Part shown: positions 4,159-21,181 of the stretch, in pieces
Position numbering within the stretch: position 1 is the first letter of the stretch
Layout: each line of letters starts with the position of its first letter
DNA from: a bacterium
Lineage (GTDB): Bacteria > Patescibacteriota > Minisyncoccia > Phycocordibacterales > JAUSHB01
Length of the DNA stretch: 64,000 nucleotides
Assembly: GCA_030648955.1 (NCBI GenBank)
Contig: JAUSHB010000006.1
Span: 11,866-75,865, forward strand
Direction: 5' to 3'
Notes under the pieces: generated by a model
What the model saw: only the letters and a program-made list of their open reading frames with translations
Told to the model about the DNA's origin: nothing
The model's database searches: none
Position numbers and translations under genes: made by a program

Positions 4159-4255
4159 AGAACGTACGTGGCATATTAACAGCACATTTATATTTGAAAT
4201 TATACACGCCTGAAGATATTTTGACTAATACTCACAAGACTATCTGTGCTCATTA

Positions 4256-6701: not shown

Positions 6702-6713
6702 AATACATTTATA

Positions 6714-8438
6714 TTACTCCCTCACCACCCTTAATATTTCCTCAATAGTGGTCATTCCCCGTTCAACTTTCCCGAGACCATCCTCAAACATTGTTACCAT
6801 TCCTTCACGAATCGCCACCTTGCGAATTTCCCCTACTGTAGCAACTTTCATAAGAAGCTCCCGAATCGCATTACTCACCTGGAACAACTCGAAGATACCA
6901 ATTTGTCCCGTAAACCCCGTATTGCCGCATACCTTGCACCCCTTACCACGATAGAGCGTAGTTGGTGTATTTTTTATATTACCTTCACCAAGTGTTTTTA
7001 TCTCCCCCACAATAAGATGATTTATTTCTGCGGGGATGGGGTATGACTCAACACATGATGTACATATCCTACGAACTAAGCGTTGAGCTATCACGAGATT
7101 CACGGTTGAAGAAAGTAGGAATGCGGGAGCACCCATATCAAGAAGACGGGGCAGGGCCGAGGGAGCATCATTCGTATGAAGAGATGAAAGCACTAAATGT
7201 CCCGTAAGGGCGGCATGGACTGCGATTTCTACTGTTTCATTGTCACGTATCTCACCAATCATTATGATGTCGGGATTTTGACGCAAAAGTGCACGCAGAC
7301 CATTAGCAAAGGTGATGCCTGATTTTGAATTTACCTGCGTTTGATTAATGCCGGATACTTGATATTCTATCGGATCCTCGATTGTCGTTATATTTACTTT
7401 TGTCGTATTCAAAATATTGAGCATTGCATAGAGCGTAGTTGTCTTTCCGTGTCCCGTAGGACCCGTAACCAATATCATTCCGTGGGGTTTTTTGATCTCC
7501 TCATCAATCCGAGTTTGCATTTTTTCAGGAACACCCAGGTCATCGAGAGTAAGTGGACGAGCGGAATTTTTCAATAGTCGCATTTCAACTTTTTCACCAT
7601 GGAATATCGGCATGATGTTGGTACGAATATCAATAGCTGTACCGTCCTCAATTTCAAAACGAAATCGTCCATCTTGGGGTGTTCTATGTTCATCGATTTG
7701 TAGGTTGCCAAGAATTTTCACCCGCGCAACAAGAATTGGCGCAATCGTTTTGGGAAGTGCTAATATTTCCTGCATGATTCCATCGATACGAAATCGTACC
7801 AGGAGAGCTTTTTCGAGCGGCTCAAAATGGATATCGGAAGCATTGAGTACCGCTGCATGCTCCACGATATTATCAAGGATCGCCACAATGGGAACCGCGG
7901 AAGCTGTTTTTGCCAAATCTGTATCACTGCTCACGGCAATTAAAAGTGACTTTTCTATGTTTTCAGATATTGTTTGATTAAATCCTACGCCAATTTTCTT
8001 TTTATATTGCCTAAGACCATATTTAAAGCTCGTAATCGTCATGAGATGTGTTTCTATCCAAACACCAAGTTTTGCGCGCAAGAATTCAATCGTATCAAGA
8101 TCGAGCGGATCAAGCATCGCGATTTTGAGAATTTTTTTAGTCACATCATGCTCAAAAGCAATAACGCTCTTTGATTTAGCGTAATTTTCTGAAACAAGCT
8201 CAAGTGTCTTTTGTGGAATATTGACCTTTTTAAGGTTTATGAGTGGAACTTCAAAATATGGAGAAAGAACTTCCGATAAGTATTCCTCTGAAATATATCC
8301 TTTCCCCATGAGAATCTCGGGAATTTCGCGTCCTGTTTTAAATGACTCATCACGAGCCAATTCAAAATCCTTATCAGTCACCACGCCGGATTCATTTAGT
8401 ATTTTTTTTAGGTTGTCGGTGGTAATGTGCATGCCCAC
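6714..8438 (-). CDS. pilB: Type IV pilus assembly ATPase PilB (GspE family)
   Basis: N-terminal GSPII_E N-domain. Walker A LVTGPTGHGKTTTL. Asp/His boxes. C-terminal tetracysteine CTSCV...CKVCGNTG. Confidence 0.9.
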   Translation of the reverse strand: MGMHITTDNLKKILNESGVVTDKDFELARDESFKTGREIPEILMGKGYISEEYLSEVLSPYFEVPLINLKKVNIPQKTLELVSENYAKSKSVIAFEHDVTKKILKIAMLDPLDLDTIEFLRAKLGVWIETHLMTITSFKYGLRQYKKKIGVGFNQTISENIEKSLLIAVSSDTDLAKTASAVPIVAILDNIVEHAAVLNASDIHFEPLEKALLVRFRIDGIMQEILALPKTIAPILVARVKILGNLQIDEHRTPQDGRFRFEIEDGTAIDIRTNIMPIFHGEKVEMRLLKNSARPLTLDDLGVPEKMQTRIDEEIKKPHGMILVTGPTGHGKTTTLYAMLNILNTTKVNITTIEDPIEYQVSGINQTQVNSKSGITFANGLRALLRQNPDIIMIGEIRDNETVEIAVHAALTGHLVLSSLHTNDAPSALPRLLDMGAPAFLLSSTVNLVIAQRLVRRICTSCVESYPIPAEINHLIVGEIKTLGEGNIKNTPTTLYRGKGCKVCGNTGFTGQIGIFELFQVSNAIRELLMKVATVGEIRKVAIREGMVTMFEDGLGKVERGMTTIEEILRVVRE

Positions 8439-8683
8439 ATATTATATCATGTGGTTTTATGCTCGCATATCCATAAAAATAATCATACGCATAAAGCCCT
8501 TCGAGCGTTTCTTTGTTATTTTGTTAGAAAATGATCATTTAATTTTTTCCCTAGGCTCGTTAAGACTTCGTAGCCCCTTCCAATTGTCTTAACATCTTCA
8601 CGACCGTGAAAGTATTCCGTGCGGGGTGATAATTTAATGTATGTGGTTTGATCTGTAGTGTATATTGTTTACCGTAAAAAGAC

Positions 8684-9364
8684 TTAGACCTTGAGGGCGG
8701 AAATATGAAAAAACGCCGTGGGATCACCAAATATTGACAGTACAAATATAGTCATGACCGAAAGTAGAAAAGAAATTCCAAGAGTGGTTCGAGATTCTTT
8801 GAGCACTTTCAGCCGATACATACTCATTATAACCGTATAGAAAAGTGCGCCGGGAATAAAGACAAGTACCCCTGGCCAGCCGGACAAAAGAGCACAGAGA
8901 AGTCCCAGTTCCATCTCCCCTTCTGCAAAGAAATGACCGCGATAGTTACGTAATAATCTAAGAAATGCATAGAACGCGAATGACACGAGAAGAAGGATTC
9001 CCACCCTTAACCAAAAACGACCGAGAACATAAAACATAAAATACCCGCCAGAATGGTTAAAAAACGGTCGAGTAAATTCAATCGCACTGGGGAAGGGTAC
9101 CGCCGTGCTCACGGGAGCAGTTACCAAAAATTTTGTCAATTCGGTTCCATTTTGCCAAACAGCATGCTGACCAAAAGTAAGCAAAAGAGAATACCCTATC
9201 ATAAATACTATCGTAAGAAATGAGAGTATCCAAAGACGCCGACGTAAAACACCCTCTCTTCCCTCTTTGTTCCTTAGAAATACTAGAGTCGTAAAAACTA
9301 AGAGTGCCGGAATTACGATGCGAGGTGCCCACAAGGCTATACTACTGATAACGTGATAATCCAT
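8684..9364 (-). CDS. Polytopic membrane protein, possibly a divergent prepilin-peptidase (A24/PilD)-like protein. The catalytic Asp pair is not evident
   Basis: About 7 predicted TM helices. Motif GHFFAEGEMELGLLCALLSGWPG resembles the PilD GGGDVKLLAxLG box but has Glu in place of Asp. Only two Asp in the whole protein. Position between pilB and the major pilin. Confidence 0.3.
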   Translation of the reverse strand: MDYHVISSIALWAPRIVIPALLVFTTLVFLRNKEGREGVLRRRLWILSFLTIVFMIGYSLLLTFGQHAVWQNGTELTKFLVTAPVSTAVPFPSAIEFTRPFFNHSGGYFMFYVLGRFWLRVGILLLVSFAFYAFLRLLRNYRGHFFAEGEMELGLLCALLSGWPGVLVFIPGALFYTVIMSMYRLKVLKESRTTLGISFLLSVMTIFVLSIFGDPTAFFHISALKV

Positions 9365-9458
9365 ATTATTTTATTATACACCAAAGCCCGCCTTGAAGGC
9401 GGGCTTTGGAAAAACTAAATCTTCTAAACTTCAAGGAACGTTTTATTGGACTATTGGA

Positions 9459-10127
9459 CTAGAAATCTACACCCGCGCCCAAAATTCTCAAGTTTGTTCC
9501 TACTTCGTAATAGTCGTTATTATTACCACCATCTTTTGTTCTTCTGTTATCAGTGCTTGTGTATTCAGTGCTTTCAAGTTGTGCGTTAATCTCAAAGTTG
9601 AGAGGATTCGCGGCGCATGCGTAGCGATATACGAGGTCAGTGCTTGCAACAGTACCAAGTGCTGCAATTGTATTAGTTGGATCTTGTGGAACATTTGAAA
9701 TTGGAGACCCACTAGTAAGAGAATCGAAACTTACTGGAATCCATCCCGTACCATCAGTAAGGGTTGGTGTTGCTGACTGACCTGAAACCACAACAATACT
9801 GCCATCAAGTGTTGTATCTGTAATCAGAGTACCAGAACCAAGCGAGTAAAAAATCTTGTCTCCAGCGATATATGCAGCAGTAGGGGATGCCTTACATGCC
9901 GTATTGTTTGCAACATCACCAAGATAAGGGGTCGATGTGCTGGTAATATAAAGACCGAGTGCTGTCTTGAGCGTGCTCAAGTCTGAAATTCGCTGTGCAT
10001 CTCGAGACTTCTTAAGCGTCTCTGCTGGGTTTATGACCAAAATAAGAGCGACTGACAAAATCGCAATAATTGCGATTACAATCAAAAGTTCAAGGAGTGT
10101 GAAACCATCTTTCTTTTCCCGTGACAT
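9459..10127 (-). CDS. Type IV pilin (major pilin candidate)
   Basis: Probable start at the second Met, giving a short leader MSREKKDG|FTLLELLIVIAIIAILSVALI. This is a canonical class III signal plus alpha1 helix. Ser/Thr-rich C-terminal domain. First gene downstream of a long promoter-containing intergenic region. Confidence 0.75.
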   Translation of the reverse strand: MSREKKDGFTLLELLIVIAIIAILSVALILVINPAETLKKSRDAQRISDLSTLKTALGLYITSTSTPYLGDVANNTACKASPTAAYIAGDKIFYSLGSGTLITDTTLDGSIVVVSGQSATPTLTDGTGWIPVSFDSLTSGSPISNVPQDPTNTIAALGTVASTDLVYRYACAANPLNFEINAQLESTEYTSTDNRRTKDGGNNNDYYEVGTNLRILGAGVDF

Positions 10128-10211
10128 AACATTTCCTGTGTACATAGTATAAAAAATTATTTTCTATTAAATTACCGAACTTATTAACTCATGTGCTCGA
10201 ATGCTCTTGCA

Positions 10212-10342: not shown

Positions 10343-10765
10343 TTATTGTCGTTCCGTATTCCCATTACTCCCCTTCCCGCCATTTTTTTCTAAATACTGC
10401 TTAACCTTACTGATTACTTCTCCGATTGAATAATCCACCTTAATAAGGTAGTCGACCGCGCCAAGTCCCATTGCACGATCACGGTCAGTTTGTTGACCTA
10501 GATTTGAAAGTGCGATTATGGGAATATTTGCTAGTTCTGGTTTCTTTTTTACCTCTTCTATCACCCAAAAACCATCACGTCCCGGTATCATAAGATCAAG
10601 GAGGATCAAGTCCGGTATTTCAATGGCGATCCCCGCAAAACCCGATGGACCATCTCGAAACACCTTAACATCTACATTTTCTTTCGCGAGTTTGATTTCA
10701 TAAACCTTTGAAATATGTTCGTCGTCTTCTATAATCACTATTTTTTTTCTTTTTTCTGTATCCAT
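10343..10765 (-). CDS. Stand-alone response-regulator receiver (CheY-like) protein
   Basis: KKIVIIEDDE... acidic pocket. Phospho-acceptor Asp in LILLDLMIPGRDG. Ser in IIALSNLG. Lys in DYLIK. No output domain. Confidence 0.85.
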   Translation of the reverse strand: MDTEKRKKIVIIEDDEHISKVYEIKLAKENVDVKVFRDGPSGFAGIAIEIPDLILLDLMIPGRDGFWVIEEVKKKPELANIPIIALSNLGQQTDRDRAMGLGAVDYLIKVDYSIGEVISKVKQYLEKNGGKGSNGNTERQ

Positions 10766-10826: not shown

Positions 10827-11243
10827 TTAGATGTACGAAACCACCTTTGAAACCAATGTATCTAAATCATAGGCACTTTTAACCAGGTAGTCAACCGCCC
10901 CCAACTCGAGGGCTCTTTTCTTTGAATCGTCTCCTCCTGATACTGATACTACGATAACTTTTTTATCTTTATATAAAGGGTTTTTCCTCATGAGTTCAAG
11001 GAAATTGAGACCGTTCATTCCAGGCAATAAAATATCGAGCCAAATGAGCACAACGCTATTATTTTCTTCGAGAACTTTAAATGCGTCCTCCGCATTAAAG
11101 GTAGTTGCAATAGTATAGCCTCTTTTGTTCAACTTAAGAACAATGGCTTTATTAAGAGCTACGTCGTCTTCGACAACAAGAATTGTTTTCACTTCGGTAG
11201 ATTTTTCAATCATGTGTTTAGTATACCACAAACTATAAATCAT
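10827..11243 (-). CDS. Stand-alone response-regulator receiver (CheY-like) protein; start may be the internal Met near 11213
   Basis: ILVVEDD, VLIWLDILLPGMNG (Asp), VIVVSVSGG, DYLVK. No output domain. Confidence 0.85.
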   Translation of the reverse strand: MIYSLWYTKHMIEKSTEVKTILVVEDDVALNKAIVLKLNKRGYTIATTFNAEDAFKVLEENNSVVLIWLDILLPGMNGLNFLELMRKNPLYKDKKVIVVSVSGGDDSKKRALELGAVDYLVKSAYDLDTLVSKVVSYI

Positions 11244-11354: not shown

Positions 11355-13829
11355 TCAGCTCATCTTCTGCGTAAGGGAAGGATGTTCGGGAACAGTAACA
11401 TTGAACGTTGTTCCCTTCCCTATTTCAGAATCAAACCACACCTTGCCTCCCCATGATTCGATTAATCCTTTTACTAACGAAAGTCCGAGCCCTGATCCAT
11501 CAGGAACCTTATTCAAGGCATTCTGAGCTCTGTAGAATTTTGAAAAGATTCTTGATTTTTCTTCATCCGGAATACCGATTCCATTATCTTGAACGCGACA
11601 GAGATATTCTCCTGCTCTTTTTTCAATACTTACGTTTATAATTCCGCCATTATTGGTGTATTGAATCGAGTTTGCAATCAGGTTCAAAAACACCTGTCGT
11701 AGCAATAATGGATCAAGGTCGATATCGGGGATATCTCCTTGTGGAAGTGAGACATTCATCGTAAGGGCTTTGGGGGAAAGTTGGGGTTTGAATTCTTCTA
11801 TAACTTCATTCATAAGTTTCACAATGTTCACCTTCTCCGTACTTTGCTTTAATGTTCCATTTTCTATTCTGGAAATTGATAACAAAAGATCGATTGTATT
11901 GTAAAGACGGAGTGTACCGCTATTGACCTCGGATGCAAAGTCTCTTTGCATTTCATTAAGAGGTCCCGCATCTTCTGAAAGAAGCATTTCGGAATACCAC
12001 CTAATTGAAGTAAGTGGCGTGCGTAATTGGTGCGATGCAATGGATATAAAACTTGATTTTGATTCATCGAGTGCTTTTTCTTTACTAATATCGCGAAACA
12101 CAATAACTGCGCCCATATCCTTATCTTTTACGAGCGGAGTAGCAAAAACTGCAACAGGAAATTCCTTTCCGGAATTTGTGCGAAATGAGTAGCGGTCTTC
12201 TAATCCAATCTCTATGGGCTGTTTCGTTGCAAGCACTCGCGCCATAAGACGATCGTCGTAGGGAATGTCCTTTCCATCTTTACGCGCCAAGATTACATCG
12301 TCTACCTTTTTCCCTATAATATCTTTCAAGGAAATATCAAGTATTTGTTCCGTCATCGGATTTGCAAGCGTTATAACATGTTCTTGGTTAACCAAAAAAA
12401 GTCCCTCGCCAACGGACGTAATAATCGACTGTAGCTCATTGCGTTGCAACTTAAATTTTTCTTTTAGCTCCCAAGCATCTTCGAGCACATTCACGGTTGC
12501 GCGTTTTGAATCTTCAAGGAATTTATTTTGTCGTTCGGTAGTTTCCAAGCTCGCCGCAAGGTCATGAGTTTTTTCAATCACTTTCTTTTCAAGATCAAAC
12601 TGAGCTTCATAGATGCGTACAAGCATGCGATTAAAAGCCCCCGCAAGGACTCCAATTTCATCATGCGTGCTTATGGTAAACAGGGGTAATATATTTGATT
12701 TATTTTTAATATCTATATGAGTCACAAAATCCGTTAGTCGCTTGAGGGGAGACACGACCAAAAAGGAAATGAGGAAATAAATAATCACACCGATGCCGAG
12801 AAGAAACGCAAGCCAGATCGCTATTAGATTCGTGATTTTATCCAAAAAGGCATATACCTCTCGCTTCTCTACCTCAACAAGAATCCATAGATTTAACGTT
12901 GGTGACCATGTATACCCACCAAGCACATTGACCGCATTGTGGTTGATATACTCTACGAGACCACTGTCGCCCACGAGTGGACTCCCTCTTCCCCAGAGTT
13001 CAAACGTAGCGCCAACCTCCTGAATGTTCTCATGATCCTCTGTATCGTGTACATGTTCTTCGGCAAGCACTTGCCCATTTTGAGAAATGAGGTAGAGCTC
13101 TGTGTGTGTTTGAAAAAAACCGGTAGATAAAAATGGCTTTGTAAATTCCCTCATGGGCACATCCCCCGCGAGAAATAATTTGGTTGAACCATTTTCTGTG
13201 AACAGGCGTGTAACAACAGTGACAACTTGATCATCATCACCCCCTTCGTTATATATCAAAAATGTTTCATCGTTAGAATGTATTGAACGTGCATGAGATC
13301 TGGTGTTTTTGTACAGATCCATGTACGTTTGCGATCCCTGTGATATGTCTGTGTTCATTGACACTATCAACTTTTCCCCAATTGCATCAAAAATGTAAAT
13401 ATTCGTAAATACCCCCGCCGTGTGAGCGTCCTTACCCACCATAGAGACCAAATATTCTCTTAGCGCATTTTGAACACCGAGCTTTGTTTTTGGTGGTGGC
13501 GTGTCTTCTTGACTAGGTATGCTATGCAACATTTCTACTATTTCTTTAGACCCTGTGAAGTTTGACTTGAAAACAATAAGGTGTCCTCCCAAATCCGCGT
13601 AGTAATCACTGATTGATTTATCTGCGATATCAACGGATATTTGCATCTTCTCGTGTATTTCATCTTTGCTAAATGAACTCACGCTCAAAAACATATAAAT
13701 ACCCGCGGCAAATAAAGGCAAAAATCCTGCGACTGCCACCAACGTTGCAAGTTTGTATGTAATACCGAAACGAACCCGCATTTCGGTATTTATTTTTCGC
13801 TGTTTCTTTTTATTGTTTTTAAAGATCAT
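11355..13829 (-). CDS. Sensor histidine kinase: two TM helices with a large extracytoplasmic (Cache-like) domain, HAMP, PAS, HisKA and HATPase_c
   Basis: H-box SIASHQLRTPLTSIRW (His codon near 12030). N/G boxes NLIANSIQYT...DNGIGIP...GSGLGLSLV. About 280-aa loop between TM1 and TM2. Confidence 0.9.
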   Translation of the reverse strand: MIFKNNKKKQRKINTEMRVRFGITYKLATLVAVAGFLPLFAAGIYMFLSVSSFSKDEIHEKMQISVDIADKSISDYYADLGGHLIVFKSNFTGSKEIVEMLHSIPSQEDTPPPKTKLGVQNALREYLVSMVGKDAHTAGVFTNIYIFDAIGEKLIVSMNTDISQGSQTYMDLYKNTRSHARSIHSNDETFLIYNEGGDDDQVVTVVTRLFTENGSTKLFLAGDVPMREFTKPFLSTGFFQTHTELYLISQNGQVLAEEHVHDTEDHENIQEVGATFELWGRGSPLVGDSGLVEYINHNAVNVLGGYTWSPTLNLWILVEVEKREVYAFLDKITNLIAIWLAFLLGIGVIIYFLISFLVVSPLKRLTDFVTHIDIKNKSNILPLFTISTHDEIGVLAGAFNRMLVRIYEAQFDLEKKVIEKTHDLAASLETTERQNKFLEDSKRATVNVLEDAWELKEKFKLQRNELQSIITSVGEGLFLVNQEHVITLANPMTEQILDISLKDIIGKKVDDVILARKDGKDIPYDDRLMARVLATKQPIEIGLEDRYSFRTNSGKEFPVAVFATPLVKDKDMGAVIVFRDISKEKALDESKSSFISIASHQLRTPLTSIRWYSEMLLSEDAGPLNEMQRDFASEVNSGTLRLYNTIDLLLSISRIENGTLKQSTEKVNIVKLMNEVIEEFKPQLSPKALTMNVSLPQGDIPDIDLDPLLLRQVFLNLIANSIQYTNNGGIINVSIEKRAGEYLCRVQDNGIGIPDEEKSRIFSKFYRAQNALNKVPDGSGLGLSLVKGLIESWGGKVWFDSEIGKGTTFNVTVPEHPSLTQKMS

Positions 13830-13865: not shown

Positions 13866-15545
13866 TTATGGTGAATTGAACTTCTTCTTAAGTTCTTCTA
13901 ATTCCTCCTTGATTTCAACCATCCGAAGTTCGCGACCAATCATCAATCGATTGGCTTCTTCAAGTTGAATCGTCTTTGATTTGAGCACTTCTTCATCTAT
14001 TTTATGTTTTGTAATATCGCGACAGTTACAAACAATGCCGTTGACGACAGGATTATTAAGGAGGTTTTTGCCCAGTGCTTCAATGGTGCGCCAAGTACCA
14101 TCCTTGTGGTGAAAACGAAATTCAACGGTGTGCGTTTCCTCTGGCTCTCCCACCACCTTTTCAAATGTCTTTTTTATCCCAGGGAGATCATCTTCGTGCA
14201 TATGCTCAAAAATCTTTTTTCCCTTGAGCTCATCCGGATTATACCCCAAGATTGCAGAAAAAGAGGGACTCGCATACGATACCGTACCATCTTTCCCGAT
14301 TACCGTGACCATATCAACGGAATTTTCACTGAGCGTTTGATAATATTTTTTTTCTATCTCGAGTTTTTCTTCAGTAATCTTATTTTCCGTTATGATGAAC
14401 TGTATGCTCACATATCCCGTAATAATCCCTTTCGTGCTGATTACGGGAACAATAATCGCGTCAACCCAATACAACGAATCATCCTTAGCTTTATTTTTAA
14501 TTTGTCCGTGCCAAACACGACCTTTCAAAAGATAGTTATGCCACATGTCATCAAAAAAAGCTTGCGGATGGAATTCTGAGCGTAACACGCGGTGATTATT
14601 TCCAATCAATTCCTCTCGAGAATATTTAGAGTTTTGAATGAACGTATCGCTTACATAAAAAATATTACCGCGTTCATCTGTTTGAGAAACAATGGCGATA
14701 GAATTCATTGCATCGAGAATCGTTTTAAAATTCTTGGGAAGTACATCCGGAGACGTGTTCTTGAGAACAAATGAGTGCACTGATGCTTCAACGATTGTTT
14801 CATGAAGAGAGGATGTGGTACTATCTTCACTGCGATAGCCAGAGAATTCTTCAACATGAATGTCGTCATGTGTAATCCCCATTTCCATAAGTGATGCCAA
14901 AGAAAACCGTACCATCCCTTCCGGTCCCGCTACATACCAAAGGGCATTTTTTTCGTTTTCTACAATCTTTTTCAACTCGTAGAGCGTAAGGTCTCCCTCA
15001 ATATACTGCACTGAAATATTTGGATTTCCTTGTGAAAACTCATCGAGATCTTTGCGATACGCCCTTGTTTCTTCGTCCTTGCTTACATAAAGTAGCGTAA
15101 TCCTATGAGGAAGTTTATTTTCATAAGAATACCGCAAGATACTCAAAAAGGGAGTAATACCGATGCCCCCGGCTATACACACAATGGGACGAGAACTGTC
15201 CTCTGGAATAAAGAAGGAGCCCAATGGATCACTTACGTGAACCACCGAACCAGTTGCCATTTCAAGAATGCTTTTTTTAAATCCGCTTCCGGAAATACGA
15301 AATGCTATCGTGATAACATCATGATTATTTGGTGATGATAAAATCGAAAAATCCCTTCCATTTCCCCTGGGATCCTGGAATATGAGGCTGGGAAGCATTA
15401 TGTGGACATATTGTCCCGGCGTAAAGGGTAATTCTTGTTCGACAATTTCTGACGACCCACCAACAGACTTACGACCAAAAGTAATCTCTATAGTTCCCCC
15501 AGCGACAACTCTTCGGTCTATGATTGGTAAATGATACTTAGACAT
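13866..15545 (-). CDS. Kinase-less sensor protein: N-terminal FNR-like FAD/NAD(P)-binding oxidoreductase domain, two PAS domains and a C-terminal conserved helix
   Basis: RDFSILSSP (RxYS FAD motif) and GGIGITPF (NAD(P) motif). Two PAS blocks (IAIVSQTDERGNIFYVSDTF...; DMVTVIGKDGTVSYASPSF...). C-terminal MIGRELRMVEIKEELEELKKKFNSP. Stop lies 36 bp before the HK start. Confidence 0.8.
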   Translation of the reverse strand: MSKYHLPIIDRRVVAGGTIEITFGRKSVGGSSEIVEQELPFTPGQYVHIMLPSLIFQDPRGNGRDFSILSSPNNHDVITIAFRISGSGFKKSILEMATGSVVHVSDPLGSFFIPEDSSRPIVCIAGGIGITPFLSILRYSYENKLPHRITLLYVSKDEETRAYRKDLDEFSQGNPNISVQYIEGDLTLYELKKIVENEKNALWYVAGPEGMVRFSLASLMEMGITHDDIHVEEFSGYRSEDSTTSSLHETIVEASVHSFVLKNTSPDVLPKNFKTILDAMNSIAIVSQTDERGNIFYVSDTFIQNSKYSREELIGNNHRVLRSEFHPQAFFDDMWHNYLLKGRVWHGQIKNKAKDDSLYWVDAIIVPVISTKGIITGYVSIQFIITENKITEEKLEIEKKYYQTLSENSVDMVTVIGKDGTVSYASPSFSAILGYNPDELKGKKIFEHMHEDDLPGIKKTFEKVVGEPEETHTVEFRFHHKDGTWRTIEALGKNLLNNPVVNGIVCNCRDITKHKIDEEVLKSKTIQLEEANRLMIGRELRMVEIKEELEELKKKFNSP

Positions 15546-15552
15546 ACATTCG

Positions 15553-17136
15553 CTATGATTTAGGGTTAAGTTTTTCGGTAAGCTGTAAAATTTCTTTTTT
15601 TAGCTCTATCATTCTCAATTCGCGCTCAATGGTAATCTTGTTTATTTTAGTAAGTTCATTAATAGTGTGCGTCATTTTTTCTTCCGCTTCTTTCTTTTCA
15701 ATTTTCTGAGCAATAATGCCTGCAACAGATTGAATAAACGAAACGTCCTGGGAAGAAAATGTTCTTCGTTTTATAGAGTACACACTAAGGACTCCATATG
15801 GCTTGCCGGTGTTTTTTGGAATAACGACACTTACGCCACTTGTTATACCATGTTCTGCTAAGTGAGGAGGTGCCTGAAAGCGCTGTTCTACTTTGAAGTC
15901 TGTAACAACAATTGGCTCATCTGAAAGAAATGTATATTCTACTTGCGAGTTTTTTCCCGCTTCGACAATAGTGTTCCCCAACATGCCTTCTCTCCATCCA
16001 GCGCCGATAACAAGACGCAACGCTTTGCCGTCAGGGAGAAGCTCAAGAATACTGACGTAGTCAACCCCTAAGCTTGCCCTAATCTTAGAAACCCCATCTT
16101 GCGTGAACACTTGAACATTCGATTCAGTAATCGCACTTCTGCTGAAGTCTGCCACAAATGCCTGCTGGCGAATACGTAACGAAACAGCTTTGTTTGTGTT
16201 TATAAGTCTTCGATTAATACTGCGCAACGCCAGCAAAACAATAACACCGAGTACGCTAATCAATGTGGCGTAAATTTTAATCTGATTGATTGCTTTAAAT
16301 ACATCACTTCGGTTTTCTTCAAGGATGACCAAAAATTGAGGGCCGGAAACATAGCCTCCCGCAGAGAGAACGCGAACACCTTTTTCATTTTTATACGTGT
16401 ATCTATCGTCAAGCGAAGATGTCGTTTGTTTTGCTTGAAGCGTATCGATCACAATACGCCGCGACATGTAGCCCGGGTTTTTAAGCACCAAGGATGTATC
16501 CGGATCGCTGATCAAAACTCCCTCACTGTCGACAATATATAGTTTTCCCGTTTGTGCAAGTTTAATACTCCCAACATCCTTAAACATTTCATTCACATTA
16601 AATTCAGCAGAAATAACACCGGCAAGAGCTTCATCTGATGTGTAGAAAGGAACACTGGCAATAATATGTGGCTCAAGGTTTGCTGAGATTGTTACAGAAG
16701 ACCATGCTGGTCTTCTGGTTGTTATCGCTTCCATAAAATTATGGCGCGTACTAATATTCTCATACGTGAGCAGATTCGTGGGTTTAAACTTATCAAACTT
16801 AATAATTTCTTTGCCGGAAGGATCGGTAAGAGAAACTGCCTTAACATTATCCCCCTTGAGTACGTTTTGTAGTACGAGACTATTTTCCTTAGCCTCAAGA
16901 TCCGGGATAATGTATTGAGACGATACCTGAAGTCCTAGAATATTATTTTCGAGAAATAACTTTATTCTTGATAGTGCGATTTCAATCGTACGTTCCTCAA
17001 CAATGTTTATGTTGCTCCGAAGAAGCGTAAGCGTAGGGAAAAGCCAAATAAGGTTACCGAGCACCACGAGAGAACCCAGGAATATGTATACGTGTGAAGA
17101 ATAATTGCTTTTTGTGGTGCCCATAGGCAGAATCAT
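15553..17136 (-). CDS. Kinase-less sensor protein: TM, extracytoplasmic double-Cache-like domain, TM, GAF domain and a C-terminal conserved helix
   Basis: Two TM segments flank an about 250-aa extracytoplasmic region. Cytoplasmic GAF-like block (...LGVDYVSILELLPDGKALRLVIGAGW...). C-terminal TIERELRMIELKKEILQLTEKLNPKS. Translationally coupled to its neighbours. Confidence 0.7.
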   Translation of the reverse strand: MILPMGTTKSNYSSHVYIFLGSLVVLGNLIWLFPTLTLLRSNINIVEERTIEIALSRIKLFLENNILGLQVSSQYIIPDLEAKENSLVLQNVLKGDNVKAVSLTDPSGKEIIKFDKFKPTNLLTYENISTRHNFMEAITTRRPAWSSVTISANLEPHIIASVPFYTSDEALAGVISAEFNVNEMFKDVGSIKLAQTGKLYIVDSEGVLISDPDTSLVLKNPGYMSRRIVIDTLQAKQTTSSLDDRYTYKNEKGVRVLSAGGYVSGPQFLVILEENRSDVFKAINQIKIYATLISVLGVIVLLALRSINRRLINTNKAVSLRIRQQAFVADFSRSAITESNVQVFTQDGVSKIRASLGVDYVSILELLPDGKALRLVIGAGWREGMLGNTIVEAGKNSQVEYTFLSDEPIVVTDFKVEQRFQAPPHLAEHGITSGVSVVIPKNTGKPYGVLSVYSIKRRTFSSQDVSFIQSVAGIIAQKIEKKEAEEKMTHTINELTKINKITIERELRMIELKKEILQLTEKLNPKS

Positions 17137-17137
17137 G

Positions 17138-18145
17138 TTAGTTTACAATTTGGGATGCAATACTTTTTATTTCTTCCGAAAACGTGACGCCGATTTCTTT
17201 CGCATTCTTAATACTCAACACAAAATCAATTTTACTCGGAGTTTCAAAAGGAAGTGCTCCGGGATCTTCTCCTTGGAGAACTTTCTCGGCGATACGCGCA
17301 AGTGATCTTCCCATGTCGGCGTAATCTGGTCCATATGAAGCAAGGGCTCCGCCATTGAGTGCTGCTTTGTCGGGCATAATGATTGGTAATTTATTCTCCC
17401 GCGCAACCTTGAGAAAGAGGTCCGACTGTGAAAAAAGCGTTCCGTGAGGATAGAACATGAGCGCGTCAAATTTTTTCCAATCCACACCCATAAAAGCGTC
17501 TTCAATTTCTTTTCGTCCCGGATTGGTAAGAGAAAATTCAGTTAGGGTAATGCCTAGTTTTTTACTTAATTCCTTGCCGATAGGTCGAGCTATCGCTGTA
17601 GGACCGCACGTAGTATCATAAAACATTGCAATATTTTTTATAGACGGAATCATTTTTTTGATAAGCTCAATCCGTTTGGGGGTAAGCTCAATACTTTGGT
17701 GCGAAATACCAGCAATATTGATTCCAGAACTTTGAATTGATTTAAAATACCCGTGAGCGATAGGATCTCCTAACGCAGTCAATATGGGGATAGTTTTTGT
17801 TTTATCCGCAAGATCAAATGTTGGTCTGGTAGAAATGGTGGCAATGAGATCTGGTTTTTCAGCAATAGCTTCATCAATATACGTTTTGAGTTTTTCCTTA
17901 CTTCCTTCAGTATTCTTATAATCAATGACGATACTTAATCCCTGCTCATGATGTATTTTCCTAATCTCTTTCATGAAACTATCCAAAAAAATCGTGAATG
18001 TTTCTCCGCCAGGATTTAATACCACAATGTGGTGAGTATGGACTGTTTCTTCCCCCCCTTTTATGCCCCCATGCTCGTAAACATACCATACTGCAATACT
18101 AAGAATAGAAAAAACGAGTACGATCAAAAATAATTTTTTAGGCAT
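17138..18145 (-). CDS. Membrane-anchored periplasmic-binding-protein-like protein; resembles the ABC_sub_bind family of substrate-binding proteins often found with two-component sensors
   Basis: N-terminal anchor helix. Two-lobed PBP-like sequence (…LTALGDPIAHGYF…IAGISHQSIELTPKRIELIKKMIPSIKNIAMFYD…). First gene of the sensor operon. No permease or ATPase partner nearby. Confidence 0.6.
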   Translation of the reverse strand: MPKKLFLIVLVFSILSIAVWYVYEHGGIKGGEETVHTHHIVVLNPGGETFTIFLDSFMKEIRKIHHEQGLSIVIDYKNTEGSKEKLKTYIDEAIAEKPDLIATISTRPTFDLADKTKTIPILTALGDPIAHGYFKSIQSSGINIAGISHQSIELTPKRIELIKKMIPSIKNIAMFYDTTCGPTAIARPIGKELSKKLGITLTEFSLTNPGRKEIEDAFMGVDWKKFDALMFYPHGTLFSQSDLFLKVARENKLPIIMPDKAALNGGALASYGPDYADMGRSLARIAEKVLQGEDPGALPFETPSKIDFVLSIKNAKEIGVTFSEEIKSIASQIVN

Positions 18146-18509: not shown

Positions 18510-19946
18510 ATGAACTTTATTAAAATTTTCACACGAGAGGAGTCAATCGCGGGTCTTGAAATAAGCGAGACTCATCTGAAGCTCGCGTTTCTAACCCTCG
18601 AAACTTCTCACAAAAAAGAACAGCCAACCCTACGTATCAAAGCACTCACCGAAGAACCTCTACCGGGGGGCACTATACAAGATGGCGAAGTTCTCGATAG
18701 AGAAGCATTGACAGCTTCCCTTATTAAACTCCTCAATAAATCACCGAGTGTTAAATATTTTATTGTTTCCATACCGGGGAATAAACTTTACCAAAAGATT
18801 TTTCCATTTCCCCAGACTATTTTAGAAGAGCGCCTTGTTGACGCGATGAAATTGGTGACGACATTCCAATTACCCTACGCGGAAGATACGGCCTATGTTG
18901 ATTGGGAAAAATCATCAAATAATCTGCACAATGAAGTTTTTCTTGCCACTGCCCCCAAGACTGTTGTCGAAGGATTTTTATCAGCACTTGATCGTGCGGG
19001 GGTCAAAACAGTTGCGCTCGAATCACACACAATGAGCTTGGCTCGAGTAGTAGAACATGAAGACCAACCTATTCTGGTATGTAACACCGGAAAAACAGAC
19101 ATCACATTCTCGGTGGTAAAAAATGGTATTCCACGATTTGAAAGAATCACCCCAATTTCTCTCTTGGGTGAAAAATCCATGAGTATGGAGATGGAAAAAA
19201 TTAAAAAATTTTATGAGGTTGAATGGAGGGAGGTAATTACGCGCGTAATTGAACTTCCCCATGTTTCGCTTTTTCACTCACTTGCGCTTGAGTTGAAACG
19301 TTTTGGCGGGGAGAATAATACAACAGCATGGGTAATTGCTCTTGGGGCAGCCATGCGCGGACTTCTCCCGCGAGCAGAAGATACCATCGTGAGCATGCTT
19401 CCCGTAGGTACCGAAAAAGCATATGAGTACCAGAAGGCGGTAGCATTTTCAAAATTTATCACCAACACCACAATCGGTCTTGCGCTATTCTGGACTGCAA
19501 TATTTTTCAGTTCGTGGATTCTTTTGTCGGCAATTCAACAAGATTCCAATAAAGAACTCTCGTCACTCTCATCGCTTCCCTCTTCAGCGGAAAACTTGGC
19601 TCTTGAAGATCGGGCGCACGAATTTAACGCACTCGCAAGGCGAGCAAATTCTATTATTGCCACATTTCCCGCATGGAGTATGGTTGTTGAGGATGTTAAA
19701 GCCCATAGCGTGAAGGGTATCACTATTACCAATGTTTCATTCGCCACCCCTGATTCACTTTTTTCATTAACCGGCATAGCCGCAACACGCGCCGATATTA
19801 ATATATTTAAAAAATCGATGGAAACTTCAAAGATTTTTACCGAAATGACCATTCCCCTTACAAACCTTGAACAACGAGCAAATATTTCTTTTTCAGCAAC
19901 ATTCCGCATGATCGATCCGAATGTCTTGTATCAAGGTAACAAGTAA
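18510..19946 (+). CDS. pilM: PilM-PilN fusion protein: actin-like ATPase-fold PilM domain, TM segment and PilN-like periplasmic tail
   Basis: N-terminus ...ESIAGLEISETHLKLAFLT matches the PilM start. Internal TM TTIGLALFWTAIFFSSWILLSAI at about aa 315. About 140 further residues follow. Confidence 0.8.
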   Translation: MNFIKIFTREESIAGLEISETHLKLAFLTLETSHKKEQPTLRIKALTEEPLPGGTIQDGEVLDREALTASLIKLLNKSPSVKYFIVSIPGNKLYQKIFPFPQTILEERLVDAMKLVTTFQLPYAEDTAYVDWEKSSNNLHNEVFLATAPKTVVEGFLSALDRAGVKTVALESHTMSLARVVEHEDQPILVCNTGKTDITFSVVKNGIPRFERITPISLLGEKSMSMEMEKIKKFYEVEWREVITRVIELPHVSLFHSLALELKRFGGENNTTAWVIALGAAMRGLLPRAEDTIVSMLPVGTEKAYEYQKAVAFSKFITNTTIGLALFWTAIFFSSWILLSAIQQDSNKELSSLSSLPSSAENLALEDRAHEFNALARRANSIIATFPAWSMVVEDVKAHSVKGITITNVSFATPDSLFSLTGIAATRADINIFKKSMETSKIFTEMTIPLTNLEQRANISFSATFRMIDPNVLYQGNK

Positions 19947-19959
19947 AAAAAACTTATTT

Positions 19960-20523
19960 ATGCTTACTCGACGACAACTTTTAATAACCCTGGGTAAACA
20001 TTTTTTTGTGATGATCACAGCCATCATCGTAGCATCTATTGCCATATCCATACTCAGTAGAAATATTACGTCAATCGGAGATTCCCTCATTGAAAAAAAA
20101 CGACTATCGATCATACTTTCCAAACGAGGCGAATATCTTTCGGGACTCAAGCGAGATTTTAATGTTGTGGGCGAAGCAGACAAAAGGATTATAGAAGCAT
20201 CCCCGCCTTCTGATAATATTCTCCCTTTTGTCGCCATTCTCGAAAACATAGCGGATCAGACATCAGTACAACAGTCGTTTAAATTTGGAATTCCATCGCT
20301 CACGGGTGAAAAACAAAACGGTATGGAAATCGCAACCATAGACTACTCAATTCGCGTAAACGGAAACGTACATACCCTGATTAATTATTTACAGCGGTTT
20401 GAGTCGCTCCCCTACTTTTCAACAATCTCAAGTATAACCATATCCGGAGGTGGAACACGGGGCTGGGAAGAAACTGCTCAGGCAACAATTGAAGCAAAAA
20501 TCTACACACTGTCGAATCAATAA
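19960..20523 (+). CDS. PilO-like type IV pilus inner-membrane assembly protein
   Basis: Start MLTRRQLLITLGKHFFVMITAIIVASIAISIL (single TM). About 150-aa periplasmic domain. Position after pilM/N. Confidence 0.55.
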   Translation: MLTRRQLLITLGKHFFVMITAIIVASIAISILSRNITSIGDSLIEKKRLSIILSKRGEYLSGLKRDFNVVGEADKRIIEASPPSDNILPFVAILENIADQTSVQQSFKFGIPSLTGEKQNGMEIATIDYSIRVNGNVHTLINYLQRFESLPYFSTISSITISGGGTRGWEETAQATIEAKIYTLSNQ

Positions 20524-20551
20524 ATACAATCTCTTACTTTATTAAAATACC

Positions 20552-21181
20552 ATGAAAGAGCGATATAAAATTAAATTAAAGGAGATCATAAAAGGAATCA
20601 CGTGGAAAAAAGTCTTCTACCCGACGCTTGTTAGTATTTTTGCACTTATTATTATTGTATTGTTCATATTTTCCGTACGCTTTATCTCTAAAAGTATCAA
20701 TCGAGTATTTATAAATGAGGAAAGTATTGAGGGTCAATTGCCACGTCTTGAACTTGATAGTTATTTACCTGTCGCAAAAAAATTAGGCATCCCGGTAAAC
20801 ACATTTGAACCATCACAGGAGCTCGGTGATGAATTTGTGGCAGAATCACAAATTCATACGCCCTCGAACTCATCCGCTACCAGTTCGCAGTATACTATCG
20901 ACAACATACAATCGCTTAAAATTGCCATATACAATAGCACTGATGTTCCTGGTCTAGCTCAAAATCTTAAGAATATTCTCAAAGAAAAAGGTTTTGAGGT
21001 GACCGAGACTGGCAATACGGAAAAGACGGGCGACCATACGCTGATTAAAATAAAAGAAAGTAAAAAGGACTCATTGGCGGAAGTAAAAACGATTGTTGGC
21101 GAACACTACAATATCGGTGAATCCCCTTTTCTTTCTGAAGATAGCGAATTTGACGTAATTATCATAATAGGAGATAAATAG
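20552..21181 (+). CDS. Membrane protein with a C-terminal LytR_C-like domain
   Basis: N-terminal TM. C-terminal block LKIAIYNSTDVPGLAQNLKNILKEKGFEV...DVIIIIGDK is typical of the LytR C-terminal domain. Confidence 0.5.
   Translation: MKERYKIKLKEIIKGITWKKVFYPTLVSIFALIIIVLFIFSVRFISKSINRVFINEESIEGQLPRLELDSYLPVAKKLGIPVNTFEPSQELGDEFVAESQIHTPSNSSATSSQYTIDNIQSLKIAIYNSTDVPGLAQNLKNILKEKGFEVTETGNTEKTGDHTLIKIKESKKDSLAEVKTIVGEHYNIGESPFLSEDSEFDVIIIIGDK

What the first reader, a model, noticed from the sequence alone, without database searches (positions are those of the whole stretch)
13866..15545. FNR-type flavoreductase module used as the input domain of a PAS-PAS signalling protein
The N-terminal about 240 aa carry the ferredoxin-NADP reductase family hallmarks: RDFSILSSP (RxYS FAD-binding) and GGIGITPF (GGxGxxP NAD(P)-binding). 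These lie in a correctly ordered beta-barrel/Rossmann arrangement. This domain is fused to two PAS domains and the H-box-like tail. No enzymatic partner (ferredoxin, oxygenase) is nearby. This suggests a reductase fold repurposed as a sensor of NAD(P)H/NAD(P)+ ratio or flavin redox state.
Basis: partly seen in the sequence, partly recalled or inferred. Interest (0 to 1): 0.6.

Follow-up and report, generated by a model that had tools for sequence, protein, structure and literature searches.

The report
Redox sensor with built-in flavin reductase
A kinase-less bacterial sensor protein joins an NAD(P)H-dependent flavin reductase module to a flavin-binding PAS redox-sensor domain, probably letting bacteria that lack a respiratory chain read their redox state and pass it to a neighbouring kinase in a type IV pilus gene cluster.

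Summary
ORF 13866-15545 (-) encodes 559 aa: a complete FNR-type two-domain module (res 1-237), a roughly 30-residue low-confidence linker, two PAS domains and a 45-residue C-terminal helix.

- The tail is not an H-box. It has no conserved His, and the protein has no kinase domain.
- PAS1 belongs to the FAD-binding redox PAS class (MmoS, Aer, NifL). The published FAD determinants are invariant across the family.
- FNR+PAS1 is a conserved unit. In the top 150 clusters, all 71 proteins with an N-terminal FNR module and extra length carry PAS1 directly after it, and 56 continue into a histidine kinase. All named members are Patescibacteria.
- The FNR motifs are as conserved in the fusions as in stand-alone homologues.
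- The downstream kinase (11355-13829) is 42-47% identical to the kinase half of the fused forms, so the window holds a split version.
- The tail also ends the neighbouring Cache-GAF sensor. It co-occurs with an 'NxLED' coiled-coil motif in the kinase, here and in unrelated metagenome loci.
- The operon sits inside a type IV pilus cluster.

Best reading (inferred, not shown): NAD(P)H reduces the FNR flavin, which reduces the PAS1 FAD; the signal passes through the tail to the kinase, then to two CheY-like regulators. I rate this a new variant of a known kind.

The parts
15216..15545 (-). FNR module, flavin-binding beta-barrel domain (res 1-110). Contains GQY (44-46), R64-D-F66-S67 (RxYS-type motif with Y->F) and S87-x-F-K90.
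   Evidence: Family conservation.
14835..15215 (-). FNR module, NAD(P)H-binding Rossmann-type domain (res 111-237). Contains AGGIGITPF (125-133), LxYxS/N (151-155), A206-G207-P208 and the C-terminal gate motif E232-E-F234-S-G-Y237.
   Evidence: Pfam NAD_binding_1, E 3e-10. Alignments to Hmp. Conservation.
14742..14834 (-). Low-confidence linker (res 238-268) joining the FNR gate residue to the PAS1 N-cap.
   Evidence: pLDDT below 50 in both models. In relatives the linker is usually shorter than in this protein.
14370..14741 (-). PAS1 (res 269-392), the FAD-binding redox PAS class. G293, H318, W335 and N351 correspond to Aer G28 (the stabilising S28G substitution; a native Gly, G107, in MmoS), H53, W70 and N85. 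Q382 sits at the Aer R115 position.
   Evidence: Determinants from PMC9668731 and PMC10468136.
14013..14369 (-). PAS2 (res 393-511), a generic PAS with no recognisable cofactor signature. Best PDB matches are ARNT/BMAL PAS-B.
13866..14012 (-). C-terminal helix or 'tail' (res 512-559 plus stop) with the conserved motif G537-RELRMVEIK (nt 13908-13937). Proposed to be the transmitter that docks on the kinase.
   Evidence: Helix 512-556 in the model. The motif is present in all kinase-less family members listed except P0065, and absent from the kinase-bearing ones. Co-occurrence with the NxLED kinase.
15553..17136 (-). Upstream kinase-less membrane sensor dCache-GAF (527 aa) that ends with the same tail (IERELRMIELKKE).
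17138..18145 (-). First gene of the operon: a substrate-binding protein (PF04392 ABC_sub_bind) with no ABC permease or ATPase beside it.
   Evidence: Same position in L001, L002 and L005.
11355..13829 (-). Partner histidine kinase (824 aa): TM sensor, HAMP, coiled coil with V-N-V-L-E-D (res 446-451, nt 12477-12494), PAS, HisKA, HATPase_c.
   Evidence: Residues 433-815 are 42-47% identical to the C-terminal half of fused FNR-PAS1-NxLED-PAS-HK proteins. Motif located.
10827..11243 (-). Single-domain response regulator 1 (CheY-like).
10343..10765 (-). Single-domain response regulator 2 (CheY-like).
5484..10145 (-). Type IV pilus genes directly downstream: pilin (9459-10145), an unknown gene (8684-9364), PilB-type ATPase (6714-8438) and PilC-type platform protein (5484-6701).
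   Evidence: The same synteny appears in L001, L002, L005 and L092.
18510..21181 (+). Divergently transcribed pilus assembly genes: PilM (18510-19946), a 200-aa ORF (19921-20523) and a LytR_C protein (20552-21181).
   Evidence: Conserved in L001, L002 and L005.

Best explanation
The protein is a cytoplasmic, kinase-less redox sensor built on a conserved two-flavin unit. An FNR-type NAD(P)H:flavin reductase module is tethered to an FAD-binding PAS domain of the MmoS/Aer/NifL class.

Proposed mechanism, step by step:
1. NAD(P)H delivers a hydride to the flavin of the FNR module.
2. Electrons pass to the FAD of PAS1, either between docked domains or through a flavin that moves between the two sites.
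3. The PAS1 flavin redox state is then set by the balance between NAD(P)H supply and re-oxidation, by O2 or another oxidant, or simply by the NAD(P)H/NAD(P)+ ratio.
4. The resulting conformational change runs through PAS2 into the C-terminal helix.
5. That helix acts in trans on the coiled coil (NxLED motif) of the downstream histidine kinase. The kinase also receives input from the Cache-GAF sensor, which carries the same tail.
6. The kinase phosphorylates two CheY-like regulators. Their likely target is the surrounding type IV pilus machinery.

Shown here: the domain identities, the conservation of cofactor motifs in both domains, the obligatory FNR-PAS1 pairing, the fused-versus-split relationship with the kinase, the tail/NxLED co-occurrence, and the pilus synteny.

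Inferred: flavin and NAD(P)H binding, inter-flavin electron transfer, tail-kinase contact, and the pilus output.
For: - **FNR module intact.** Searches identify it. GQY, RxFS, SxFK, GGxGxxPF, LxYxN, GPxxM and EE[FY] are conserved in the 71 fusion clusters at the same level as in 70 stand-alone homologues.
- **PAS1 is FAD-type.** Best solved relatives are MmoS PAS-A, Aer and NifL PAS1. The residues published as FAD determinants (Aer G28, H53, W70, N85; PMC9668731, PMC10468136) are invariant in 53 of 53 family members. The N5-proximal Arg (Aer R115) is present in 51 of 53.
- **Obligatory coupling.** In the top 150 of 2959 clusters (E<=1e-30), all 71 proteins with an N-terminal FNR module and more than 380 aa have PAS1 after it, directly after it in 70 of them. 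None joins FNR straight to a kinase.
- **Thermodynamics.** Aer and MmoS FAD potentials are about -290 mV (PMC9668731). This is close to NAD(P)H at about -320 mV (textbook value), so the PAS flavin could report the nucleotide ratio.
- **Input role.** 56 of the 71 fusions continue into HisKA-HATPase. The window kinase is 42-47% identical over about 380 aa to the kinase half of the fused forms.
- **Tail and kinase.** In 6 distinct operons every kinase-less sensor ends in the tail and the single kinase carries NxLED. Neither motif occurs in about 85 control loci. In 40 unrelated metagenome loci, 16 have an NxLED ORF within 4 kb downstream, against 1 motif per 1.08 Mb in controls.
- **Pilus synteny.**
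- **Taxonomy.** All named members are Patescibacteria. Published genome surveys generally describe this group as lacking respiratory chains and quinones (my own knowledge). That would remove the usual reductant of Aer/NifL-type sensors.
Against: - No cofactor or activity has been measured.
- Pfam FAD_binding_6 is below threshold on this protein.
- The canonical Cys of the FNR 'CG' motif is Ala (A206).
- This particular protein has Q382 where 51 of 53 relatives have the N5-proximal Arg. Its PAS1 flavin chemistry may therefore differ, being more LOV-like.
- AlphaFold2 predicts no confident FNR:PAS1 interface. The linker has pLDDT below 50 and pTM is 0.70 for residues 1-400.
- The same FNR module occurs C-terminal to a HAMP receptor in one cluster (P0259). 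This shows it can also sit at an output position.
- The tail-kinase contact rests on co-occurrence only, and 24 of the 40 metagenome loci with enough flank show no NxLED ORF downstream.
- Not all family operons lie next to pilus genes (L090, L093).
Confidence: 0.5

Rival explanations
1. The FNR fold is itself the sensor. NAD(P)H binding must displace the C-terminal aromatic gate residue (F234 in EEFxGY). That movement pulls on the linker and is relayed to the PAS domains. No electrons need to reach PAS1.
For: - PAS1 begins only about 0-30 residues after the gate motif in most relatives.
- The gate motif EE[FY] is conserved.
- Solved relatives show this Phe gating nucleotide access: the NqrF F406A and SpNOX F397 variants appear among the structural hits.
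Against: - This does not explain why the partner is always an FAD-type PAS with invariant flavin-binding residues.
- The gate aromatic is less conserved in the fusions (F/Y 79%) than in stand-alone homologues (97%).
Confidence: 0.18
2. A flavin-occupancy variant. The module works like Fre, with flavin as a substrate. It reduces free or exchangeable FAD. PAS1 holds only oxidised or semiquinone FAD, so NAD(P)H-driven reduction empties PAS1. Occupancy, rather than bound-state redox, is the signal.
For: - The motif is RxFS, as in Fre-type enzymes (own knowledge), and the Fre and LuxG models match.
- Stand-alone homologues are Fre-sized, at 226-240 aa.
- Aer-PAS is reported not to bind fully reduced FAD (PMC9668731, abstract).
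Against: - The best profile matches are to FAD-holding modules (Hmp, MmoC, BenC).
- There is no direct evidence on how tightly the flavin binds.
Confidence: 0.12
3. The direction of signalling is reversed. The FNR module is a regulated enzymatic output, for example reduction of a flavin, a pterin or O2. The PAS domains, or the kinase complex acting through the tail, switch it on and off.
For: - This protein has no other catalytic domain.
- One cluster places the same module after a TM-HAMP receptor (P0259).
- Close stand-alone homologues appear to be metabolic enzymes, encoded next to a ThyA-pterin-binding fusion.
Against: - The FNR module is N-terminal in all 71 fusions, and most of them end in a kinase.
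- Kinase-less forms all carry the tail shared with classical extracellular sensors.
- No substrate-related genes lie nearby.
Confidence: 0.1
4. The FNR-like domain is a cofactor-less pseudoenzyme, kept only as a dimerisation or scaffold domain.
For: - Cys of the CG motif is missing.
- FAD_binding_6 is below the Pfam threshold on this protein.
Against: All other cofactor and nucleotide motifs are conserved as strongly as in the stand-alone homologues. This is not expected for a decayed site.
Confidence: 0.05

Closest known systems
FAD-binding PAS redox sensors: MmoS PAS-A (3EWK), Aer (8DIK), NifL PAS1 (2GJ3)
   Same: PAS1 is their sequence relative (E 2.8e-32, 6.5e-21 and 4.6e-11). It keeps the Gly/His/Trp/Asn flavin determinants. 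As in those proteins, PAS1 sits upstream of a kinase-type output.
   Different: Those sensors depend on external reductants, such as the respiratory chain, the quinol pool or unknown donors. Here a reductase module is fused in cis. This protein has Gln instead of the N5-proximal Arg, has no output domain, and signals through a C-terminal helix.
FNR-superfamily reductase modules: flavohaemoglobin Hmp, Fre/LuxG flavin reductases, the SpNOX dehydrogenase domain, BenC/MmoC/PDR
   Same: The two-domain fold and the motifs are the same. Size and RxFS motif resemble Fre. The C-terminal aromatic gate is as in NqrF and SpNOX.
   Different: There is no haem, [2Fe-2S] or membrane partner domain. The acceptor position is occupied by a PAS domain. 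The CG-motif Cys is replaced by Ala.
In-trans reduction of NifL-FAD by NADH through Hmp or spinach FNR (Macheroux et al. 1998, Biochem J 332:413). The paper is cited in PMC12540587 and PMC10372690. Its content is recalled from my own knowledge, because the paper was not readable here.
   Same: The same three components are involved: NAD(P)H, an FNR-type flavoprotein and a PAS-bound FAD.
   Different: That reaction was an in-vitro, intermolecular one of uncertain physiological meaning. Here the two partners are covalently fused and conserved as a unit.
Rex-type NADH/NAD+ sensing repressors
   Same: The cell's pyridine-nucleotide redox state would be the signal.
   Different: Rex binds the nucleotide in a Rossmann domain without a flavin or electron transfer, and it binds DNA directly. 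There is no homology beyond the Rossmann fold.
Type IV pilus control by paired CheY-like regulators: PilG/PilH of the Chp system (PMC10519157) and PixG/PixH of Tax1 (PMC11181946)
   Same: Two single-domain receivers are encoded with the pilus genes downstream of a sensory kinase.
   Different: Here the kinase is a classical HisKA kinase rather than CheA. The receivers are generic, and their targets are untested.
Effector-less 'short' PAS/LOV proteins (e.g. PpSB1-LOV; own knowledge)
   Same: A sensor PAS is followed only by a C-terminal helix.
   Different: The tail here has a strongly conserved sequence motif. It is shared by many unrelated sensor types and is linked to a specific kinase class.

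Membership tests
FNR superfamily (ferredoxin-NADP reductase-type FAD/NAD(P)-binding module) | Two-domain fold in order: a six-stranded antiparallel beta-barrel, then a Rossmann-type nucleotide domain | tested here: met
   AlphaFold2 secondary structure with pLDDT above 90 over most of residues 1-235. Foldseek hits to Hmp, GcoB, SpNOX DH and NqrF.
FNR superfamily (ferredoxin-NADP reductase-type FAD/NAD(P)-binding module) | RxYS/T flavin-binding motif | tested here: met
   R64-D-F66-S67 aligns to RQYS of flavohaemoglobin. Tyr is replaced by Phe, as in Fre-type enzymes (own knowledge). In the fusions R is 97%, F 94% and S 93% conserved.
FNR superfamily (ferredoxin-NADP reductase-type FAD/NAD(P)-binding module) | GGxGxxP nucleotide-binding motif | tested here: met
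   G126-G-I-G-I-T-P132, with Pfam NAD_binding_1 at 41.2 bits against a cut-off of 22. Conservation.
FNR superfamily (ferredoxin-NADP reductase-type FAD/NAD(P)-binding module) | Cys-Gly motif near the nicotinamide site | tested here: not met
   The sequence is A206-G207-P208. Only Gly is conserved, in both the fusions and the stand-alone homologues. To my knowledge the Cys is not universal in the superfamily.
FNR superfamily (ferredoxin-NADP reductase-type FAD/NAD(P)-binding module) | C-terminal aromatic residue stacking on the flavin | tested here: met
   F234 in EEF aligns with YEVF of Hmp. F/Y is 79% conserved in the fusions and 97% in the stand-alone homologues.
FNR superfamily (ferredoxin-NADP reductase-type FAD/NAD(P)-binding module) | Profile match of the flavin domain (Pfam FAD_binding_6) | tested here: inconclusive
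   Not reported at E<=0.01 for this protein. Recorded for several homologues. The NCBIfam whole-module models do cover residues 34-240.
FNR superfamily (ferredoxin-NADP reductase-type FAD/NAD(P)-binding module) | Bound flavin and NAD(P)H oxidation | not testable with these tools
   Needs purified protein.
FAD-binding PAS redox sensors (Aer/MmoS/NifL; clusters 4, 9 and 14 of PMC10468136) | Conserved Trp on the F-alpha helix, the primary FAD determinant | tested here: met
   W335 aligns to Aer W70 and is present in 53 of 53 family members.
FAD-binding PAS redox sensors (Aer/MmoS/NifL; clusters 4, 9 and 14 of PMC10468136) | His stacking on the isoalloxazine (Aer H53, MmoS H132) and Asn bonding to N3/O4 (Aer N85, MmoS N164) | tested here: met
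   H318 and N351, both present in 53 of 53 members. Residue roles from PMC9668731.
FAD-binding PAS redox sensors (Aer/MmoS/NifL; clusters 4, 9 and 14 of PMC10468136) | Arg close to flavin N5 on the I-beta strand (Aer R115, MmoS R195) | tested here: not met
   This protein, and its 97% relative, has Q382. 51 of 53 relatives have Arg. Gln is the LOV-type residue at this position (own knowledge).
FAD-binding PAS redox sensors (Aer/MmoS/NifL; clusters 4, 9 and 14 of PMC10468136) | FAD actually bound and redox-active | not testable with these tools
   Needs purified protein.
Sensor histidine kinase (HisKA type) | DHp domain with a phospho-accepting His (H-box) | tested here: not met
   No HisKA match. 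No conserved His in the tail. hhalign of the tail against the H-box alignment gives probability 0.06.
Sensor histidine kinase (HisKA type) | HATPase_c catalytic domain | tested here: not met
   Absent; the protein ends at residue 559, after the helix.

The most novel reading that the evidence does not exclude
Two linked novelties.

(a) FNR-PAS(FAD) is a self-contained NAD(P)H-powered redox or oxygen sensor. Patescibacteria would use it in place of respiratory-chain-coupled sensors such as Aer, to steer type IV pilus behaviour such as host attachment or twitching.

(b) The conserved C-terminal 'ELExxNxLMxGRELKMxELK' helix, paired with the 'NxLED' coiled coil of the kinase, forms a general plug-and-socket code. 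By this code many kinds of sensor-only proteins (Cache, CHASE4, GAF, HAMP, PAS, FNR-PAS) converge in trans on one histidine kinase, in many phyla.
Probability: 0.3. Interest if true: 0.8.

Novelty: new variant of a known kind. Interest (0 to 1): 0.64.

Why it matters
How flavin-PAS redox sensors such as Aer, NifL and MmoS get their electrons in vivo remains largely unresolved (own knowledge). A natural fusion that carries its own NAD(P)H-dependent reductase would be a simple, soluble, self-contained model for measuring that coupling.

It would also show how bacteria described as lacking respiratory chains can still sense their redox or oxygen status. It would give a first handle on signal input to type IV pili in Patescibacteria, where pili are central to the episymbiotic lifestyle (own knowledge).

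The shared tail motif hints at a wider rule for wiring sensor-only proteins to kinases. Such a rule would affect how 'output-less' PAS, Cache and GAF proteins are annotated in metagenomes.

A reductase-PAS-kinase cassette could also be useful as a genetically encoded NAD(P)H-responsive switch.

Tried and rejected
- **H-box reading of the tail: rejected.** No HisKA match, no conserved His, and hhalign probability 0.06 against H-box alignments of the fused relatives.
- **Pfam search of the tail and of the kinase coiled coil.** Only chance-level hits.
- **Literature searches.** Searches for the fusion, for the tail motif and for NxLED found nothing relevant. One search failed on syntax.
- **GTDB species-representative scan with the FNR profile.** It therefore says nothing about the fusion's distribution.
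- **Separate-gene pairing of FNR with a PAS kinase in those loci.** Not found.
- **Tail profile search of the protein database.** Its top 120 hits were all fragments of 90 aa or less, giving no architectural information. The metagenome scan replaced it.
- **AlphaFold2 of residues 1-400, to find a fixed FNR:PAS1 interface.** Inconclusive: pTM 0.70 and a disordered linker. Model coordinates are not exposed, so no flavin-flavin distance could be measured.
- **afdb50 fold library.** Unavailable.
- **Macheroux 1998 paper.** Could not be read. Its content is cited from my own knowledge only.
- **PAS2.** No cofactor signature found.
- **The 191-aa ORF on the + strand at 14004-14579.** It lies antisense inside the gene and was treated as spurious.
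Full report
**1. What is in the sequence**

The finding's coordinates match an ORF of 559 aa on the minus strand, 13866-15545. It is packed into an operon. The upstream gene ends 7 nt before its ATG, and the next gene starts 36 nt after its stop.

RDFSILSSP is at residues 64-72 and GGIGITPF at residues 126-133.

Profile and sequence searches identify the N-terminal domain:
- Pfam finds NAD_binding_1 at residues 124-214, above its curated threshold, plus two PAS domains. It finds no HisKA or HATPase_c.
- NCBIfam models of whole FNR-type modules cover residues 34-240. These include flavohaemoprotein (E 2.6e-23), MmoC, BenC, PaaE, Fre and LuxG.
- Sequence search of the PDB returns flavohaemoglobins, phthalate dioxygenase reductase, BenC, the SpNOX dehydrogenase domain and Fre. 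The alignments place RDFS on RQYS, GGIGITP on GGVGLTP, and VEEF on the C-terminal YEVF.

AlphaFold2 with a 53-sequence family alignment gives pLDDT above 90 for most of residues 1-235, with a dip over residues 21-40. The model shows a beta-barrel followed by a Rossmann-type domain, a low-confidence linker (237-266), two PAS folds and one long helix at 512-556. Foldseek against the PDB finds Hmp, GcoB, SpNOX DH (TM 0.86 on the target), NqrF and, for the PAS part, MmoS.

Pfam's FAD_binding_6 model itself stays below E 0.01 on this protein.

**2. The tail is not an H-box**

The C-terminal helix carries the motif GRELRMVEIK. Its only His, H514 just after PAS2, lies outside that motif and is not conserved in relatives. 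A profile-profile comparison between 16 tails and 12 genuine H-box regions from fused relatives gives probability 0.06. The protein is not a kinase.

**3. PAS1 is a flavin-type redox PAS**

Searching PAS1 alone against the PDB gives three top hits:
- MmoS PAS-A (3EWK, E 2.8e-32)
- Aer (8DIK, E 6.5e-21)
- NifL PAS1 (2GJ3, E 4.6e-11)

LOV domains follow further down. The top three are the structurally characterised FAD-binding redox PAS domains.

Published work names the determinants. A Trp on the F-alpha helix is the primary one, with a His and an Asn as secondary ones (PMC10468136). In Aer these are H53 (stacking), N85 (bonding to N3/O4) and R115 (near N5). A Gly at position 28 favours binding. 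The MmoS equivalents are H132, N164, R195 and G107 (PMC9668731).

In an alignment of 53 family members, the equivalent positions G293, H318, W335 and N351 are invariant. Position 382 is Arg in 51 of 53. The window protein and its 97% relative have Gln there, the residue typical of LOV domains (own knowledge).

PAS2 resembles ARNT/BMAL PAS-B and shows no cofactor signature.

**4. FNR+PAS1 is a conserved unit**

The first database search found about 50 proteins with the same N-terminal module among the best 120 hits. Their architectures are FNR-PAS-tail, FNR-PAS-PAS-tail, FNR-PAS-PAS-HK, FNR-PAS-GAF-HK, and forms with an added receiver.

An exhaustive HMM search with a profile of the FNR module alone gave 2959 clusters at E<=1e-30. 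The best 150 break down as follows:
- 70 are stand-alone proteins of about 226-240 aa.
- 71 have the module at the N-terminus followed by an MmoS-type PAS. Of these, 56 also have a kinase core.
- 9 have other partners: a ferric-reductase membrane domain, an RnfD-like domain, or a HAMP receptor.

No protein joins the module directly to a kinase without PAS1. In 70 of the 71, PAS1 follows the FNR module directly, and the linker is usually shorter than in the window protein.

The cofactor and nucleotide motifs are conserved in the fusions to the same degree as in the stand-alone homologues. Only the C-terminal aromatic is somewhat relaxed, at 79% against 97%.

Every member that carries an organism name is from Patescibacteria: Saccharimonadales, Levybacteria, Uhrbacteria, Paceibacterota, Wolfebacteria, or 'Patescibacteria group'.

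The window itself is chromosomal. It holds rpoB, rpoC, a sigma-70 gene, dnaG, dnaE, smc and suf genes, and has 38-47% G+C.

**5. The partner kinase**

The gene order is conserved in a 97% relative and in 38-51% relatives:
1. substrate-binding protein
2. dCache(-GAF) sensor
3. FNR-PAS(-PAS)
4. HAMP-PAS histidine kinase
5. receiver
6. receiver

Pilin, PilB and PilC genes follow downstream, and PilM and its partners are transcribed divergently upstream.

The cytoplasmic part of the window kinase (residues 433-815) is 42-47% identical, end to end, to the C-terminal half of fused FNR-PAS1-PAS-HK proteins such as P0376, P0249, P0096 and P0270. One of these fused genes sits in the same operon frame with two receivers (L090). 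Another lies next to the pilus genes (L092).

This is a classic fusion/fission link. It argues that the window protein feeds the downstream kinase.

**6. The tail and the NxLED motif**

Every kinase-less family member listed except one (P0065) ends with E..N.LM.[GD]REL[KR]M.ELK. No kinase-bearing member has this motif.

The same tail ends other sensor-only proteins encoded beside the kinase:
- the neighbouring dCache or dCache-GAF sensors
- a small 182-aa protein
- a dCache-PAS protein
- a TM-HAMP protein

In the fused forms, the segment after PAS1 carries a different conserved motif, K.A..N[IVL]LED. This motif is also present in the coiled coil between HAMP and PAS of the split kinases, at residues 446-451 in the window.

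A six-frame scan of all loci held at that point found both motifs together in six distinct operons. Neither occurred in about 85 unrelated loci.

A metagenome scan seeded only with the tail returned 78 loci carrying it. Apart from two outliers (78 and 87 residues), the tail lies 7-41 residues before a stop, and never in an ORF with a kinase core. Of 40 loci with at least 2.5 kb downstream, 16 have an NxLED ORF within 4 kb on the same strand. Most are kinases with the motif about 370-390 residues from the end. The control rate is one motif in 1.08 Mb.

Sampled tail proteins are sensor-only: GAF, dCache-HAMP, dCache-GAF, CHASE4, and TM-PAS-PAS.

Neither Pfam nor the searchable literature describes either motif. 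Contact between the tail and the kinase is an inference from this co-occurrence.

**7. Mechanism**

The evidence best fits a two-flavin relay. NAD(P)H reduces the FNR flavin, which reduces the PAS1 FAD. The flavin state is then passed through PAS2 and the tail to the kinase, and from there to two CheY-like receivers. By synteny, these act on the pilus machinery.

Several points support this reading:
- The reported potentials of Aer-FAD and MmoS-FAD are about -290 mV (PMC9668731). This is near that of NAD(P)H, so such a relay could report the nucleotide ratio, or the balance between reduction and re-oxidation.
- An intermolecular version of this chemistry has been described. NifL-FAD was reduced by NADH through Hmp or FNR (Macheroux et al. 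1998). That paper is cited in PMC12540587 and PMC10372690, but its content here comes from my own knowledge.
- Patescibacteria are generally described as lacking respiratory chains (own knowledge). That would explain why a reductase is built into the sensor.

The weaknesses are:
- No biochemistry has been done.
- No confident domain interface is predicted (pTM 0.70).
- This protein has Q382 where most relatives have Arg.
- Cys is absent from the CG motif.
- One HAMP-FNR architecture places the module at an output position.
- Some family operons are not next to pilus genes.

The rivals are direct allosteric sensing of NAD(P)H through the gate residue, a Fre-like flavin-occupancy mechanism, a regulated-enzyme reading, and a pseudoenzyme. 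They are listed with their tests in the rival section.

**8. Novelty**

Both domains belong to well-known families, and flavin-PAS redox sensing is established. I could find no description of their obligatory fusion, nor of its split version wired through a shared tail to a kinase in a pilus cluster. Database names are all generic, such as 'PAS domain S-box protein'.

I rate it a new variant of a known kind, of moderate to high interest. The tail/NxLED pairing is a separate lead of possibly wider reach.

Noticed in passing
window 13908-13937 and 15598-15627 (tails); window 12477-12494 (kinase NxLED); loci L095-L174: A conserved C-terminal helix motif (ELExxNxLMxGRELKMxELK) ends many kinds of sensor-only proteins: Cache, CHASE4, GAF, HAMP, PAS and FNR-PAS. 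It co-occurs with an 'NxLED' coiled-coil motif in a nearby histidine kinase, and this holds well beyond this family (16 of 40 metagenome loci against 1 per 1.08 Mb in controls). Neither motif has a Pfam model or a paper that I could find.
   Followed up: partly
L087 528-2710, L088 1433-3615, L089 85-2267: The closest stand-alone relatives of the sensor's FNR module (226 aa) are encoded with overlapping stop and start directly after a 500-aa thymidylate synthase fused to a pterin-binding DUF4346 domain. This suggests an NAD(P)H-dependent dihydrofolate or dihydropterin reductase role in these genomes.
   Followed up: no
protein P0259 (531 aa; HAMP 203-249, FNR 309-530); P0265 and P0342 (Ferric_reduct plus FNR); P0290 (RnfD/NqrB-like plus FNR): The same FNR module also occurs C-terminal to a TM-HAMP receptor, where it may be a signal-regulated reductase. 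It also occurs after haem-type ferric-reductase and RnfD-like membrane domains.
   Followed up: no
window 17138-18145: A PF04392 substrate-binding protein opens the sensory operon with no ABC permease or ATPase beside it. This position is conserved in relatives (L001, L002, L005). It may act as a ligand-binding co-sensor for the adjacent dCache protein.
   Followed up: no
window 14400-14402 (Q382): The window protein and its 97% relative carry Gln at the flavin N5-proximal position, where 51 of 53 relatives (and Aer and MmoS) have Arg. Gln is the LOV-type residue and could change the flavin's redox chemistry or signalling.
   Followed up: partly
window 52823-53731: One ORF of 302 aa joins a NusB domain (residues 7-138) to a NUDIX hydrolase domain (residues 181-284).
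   Followed up: no
window 235-4185: A 1316-aa ORF whose only Pfam match is a purple-acid-phosphatase N-terminal (fibronectin-like) domain near its C-terminus. It lies just beyond the pilus genes and may be a large surface protein.
   Followed up: no
window 14004-14579 (+): A 191-aa ORF antisense to the PAS-coding region of the target gene. It is rich in Phe, Ile and Asn, as expected from the reverse complement of a coding region, and is probably not a gene.
   Followed up: no
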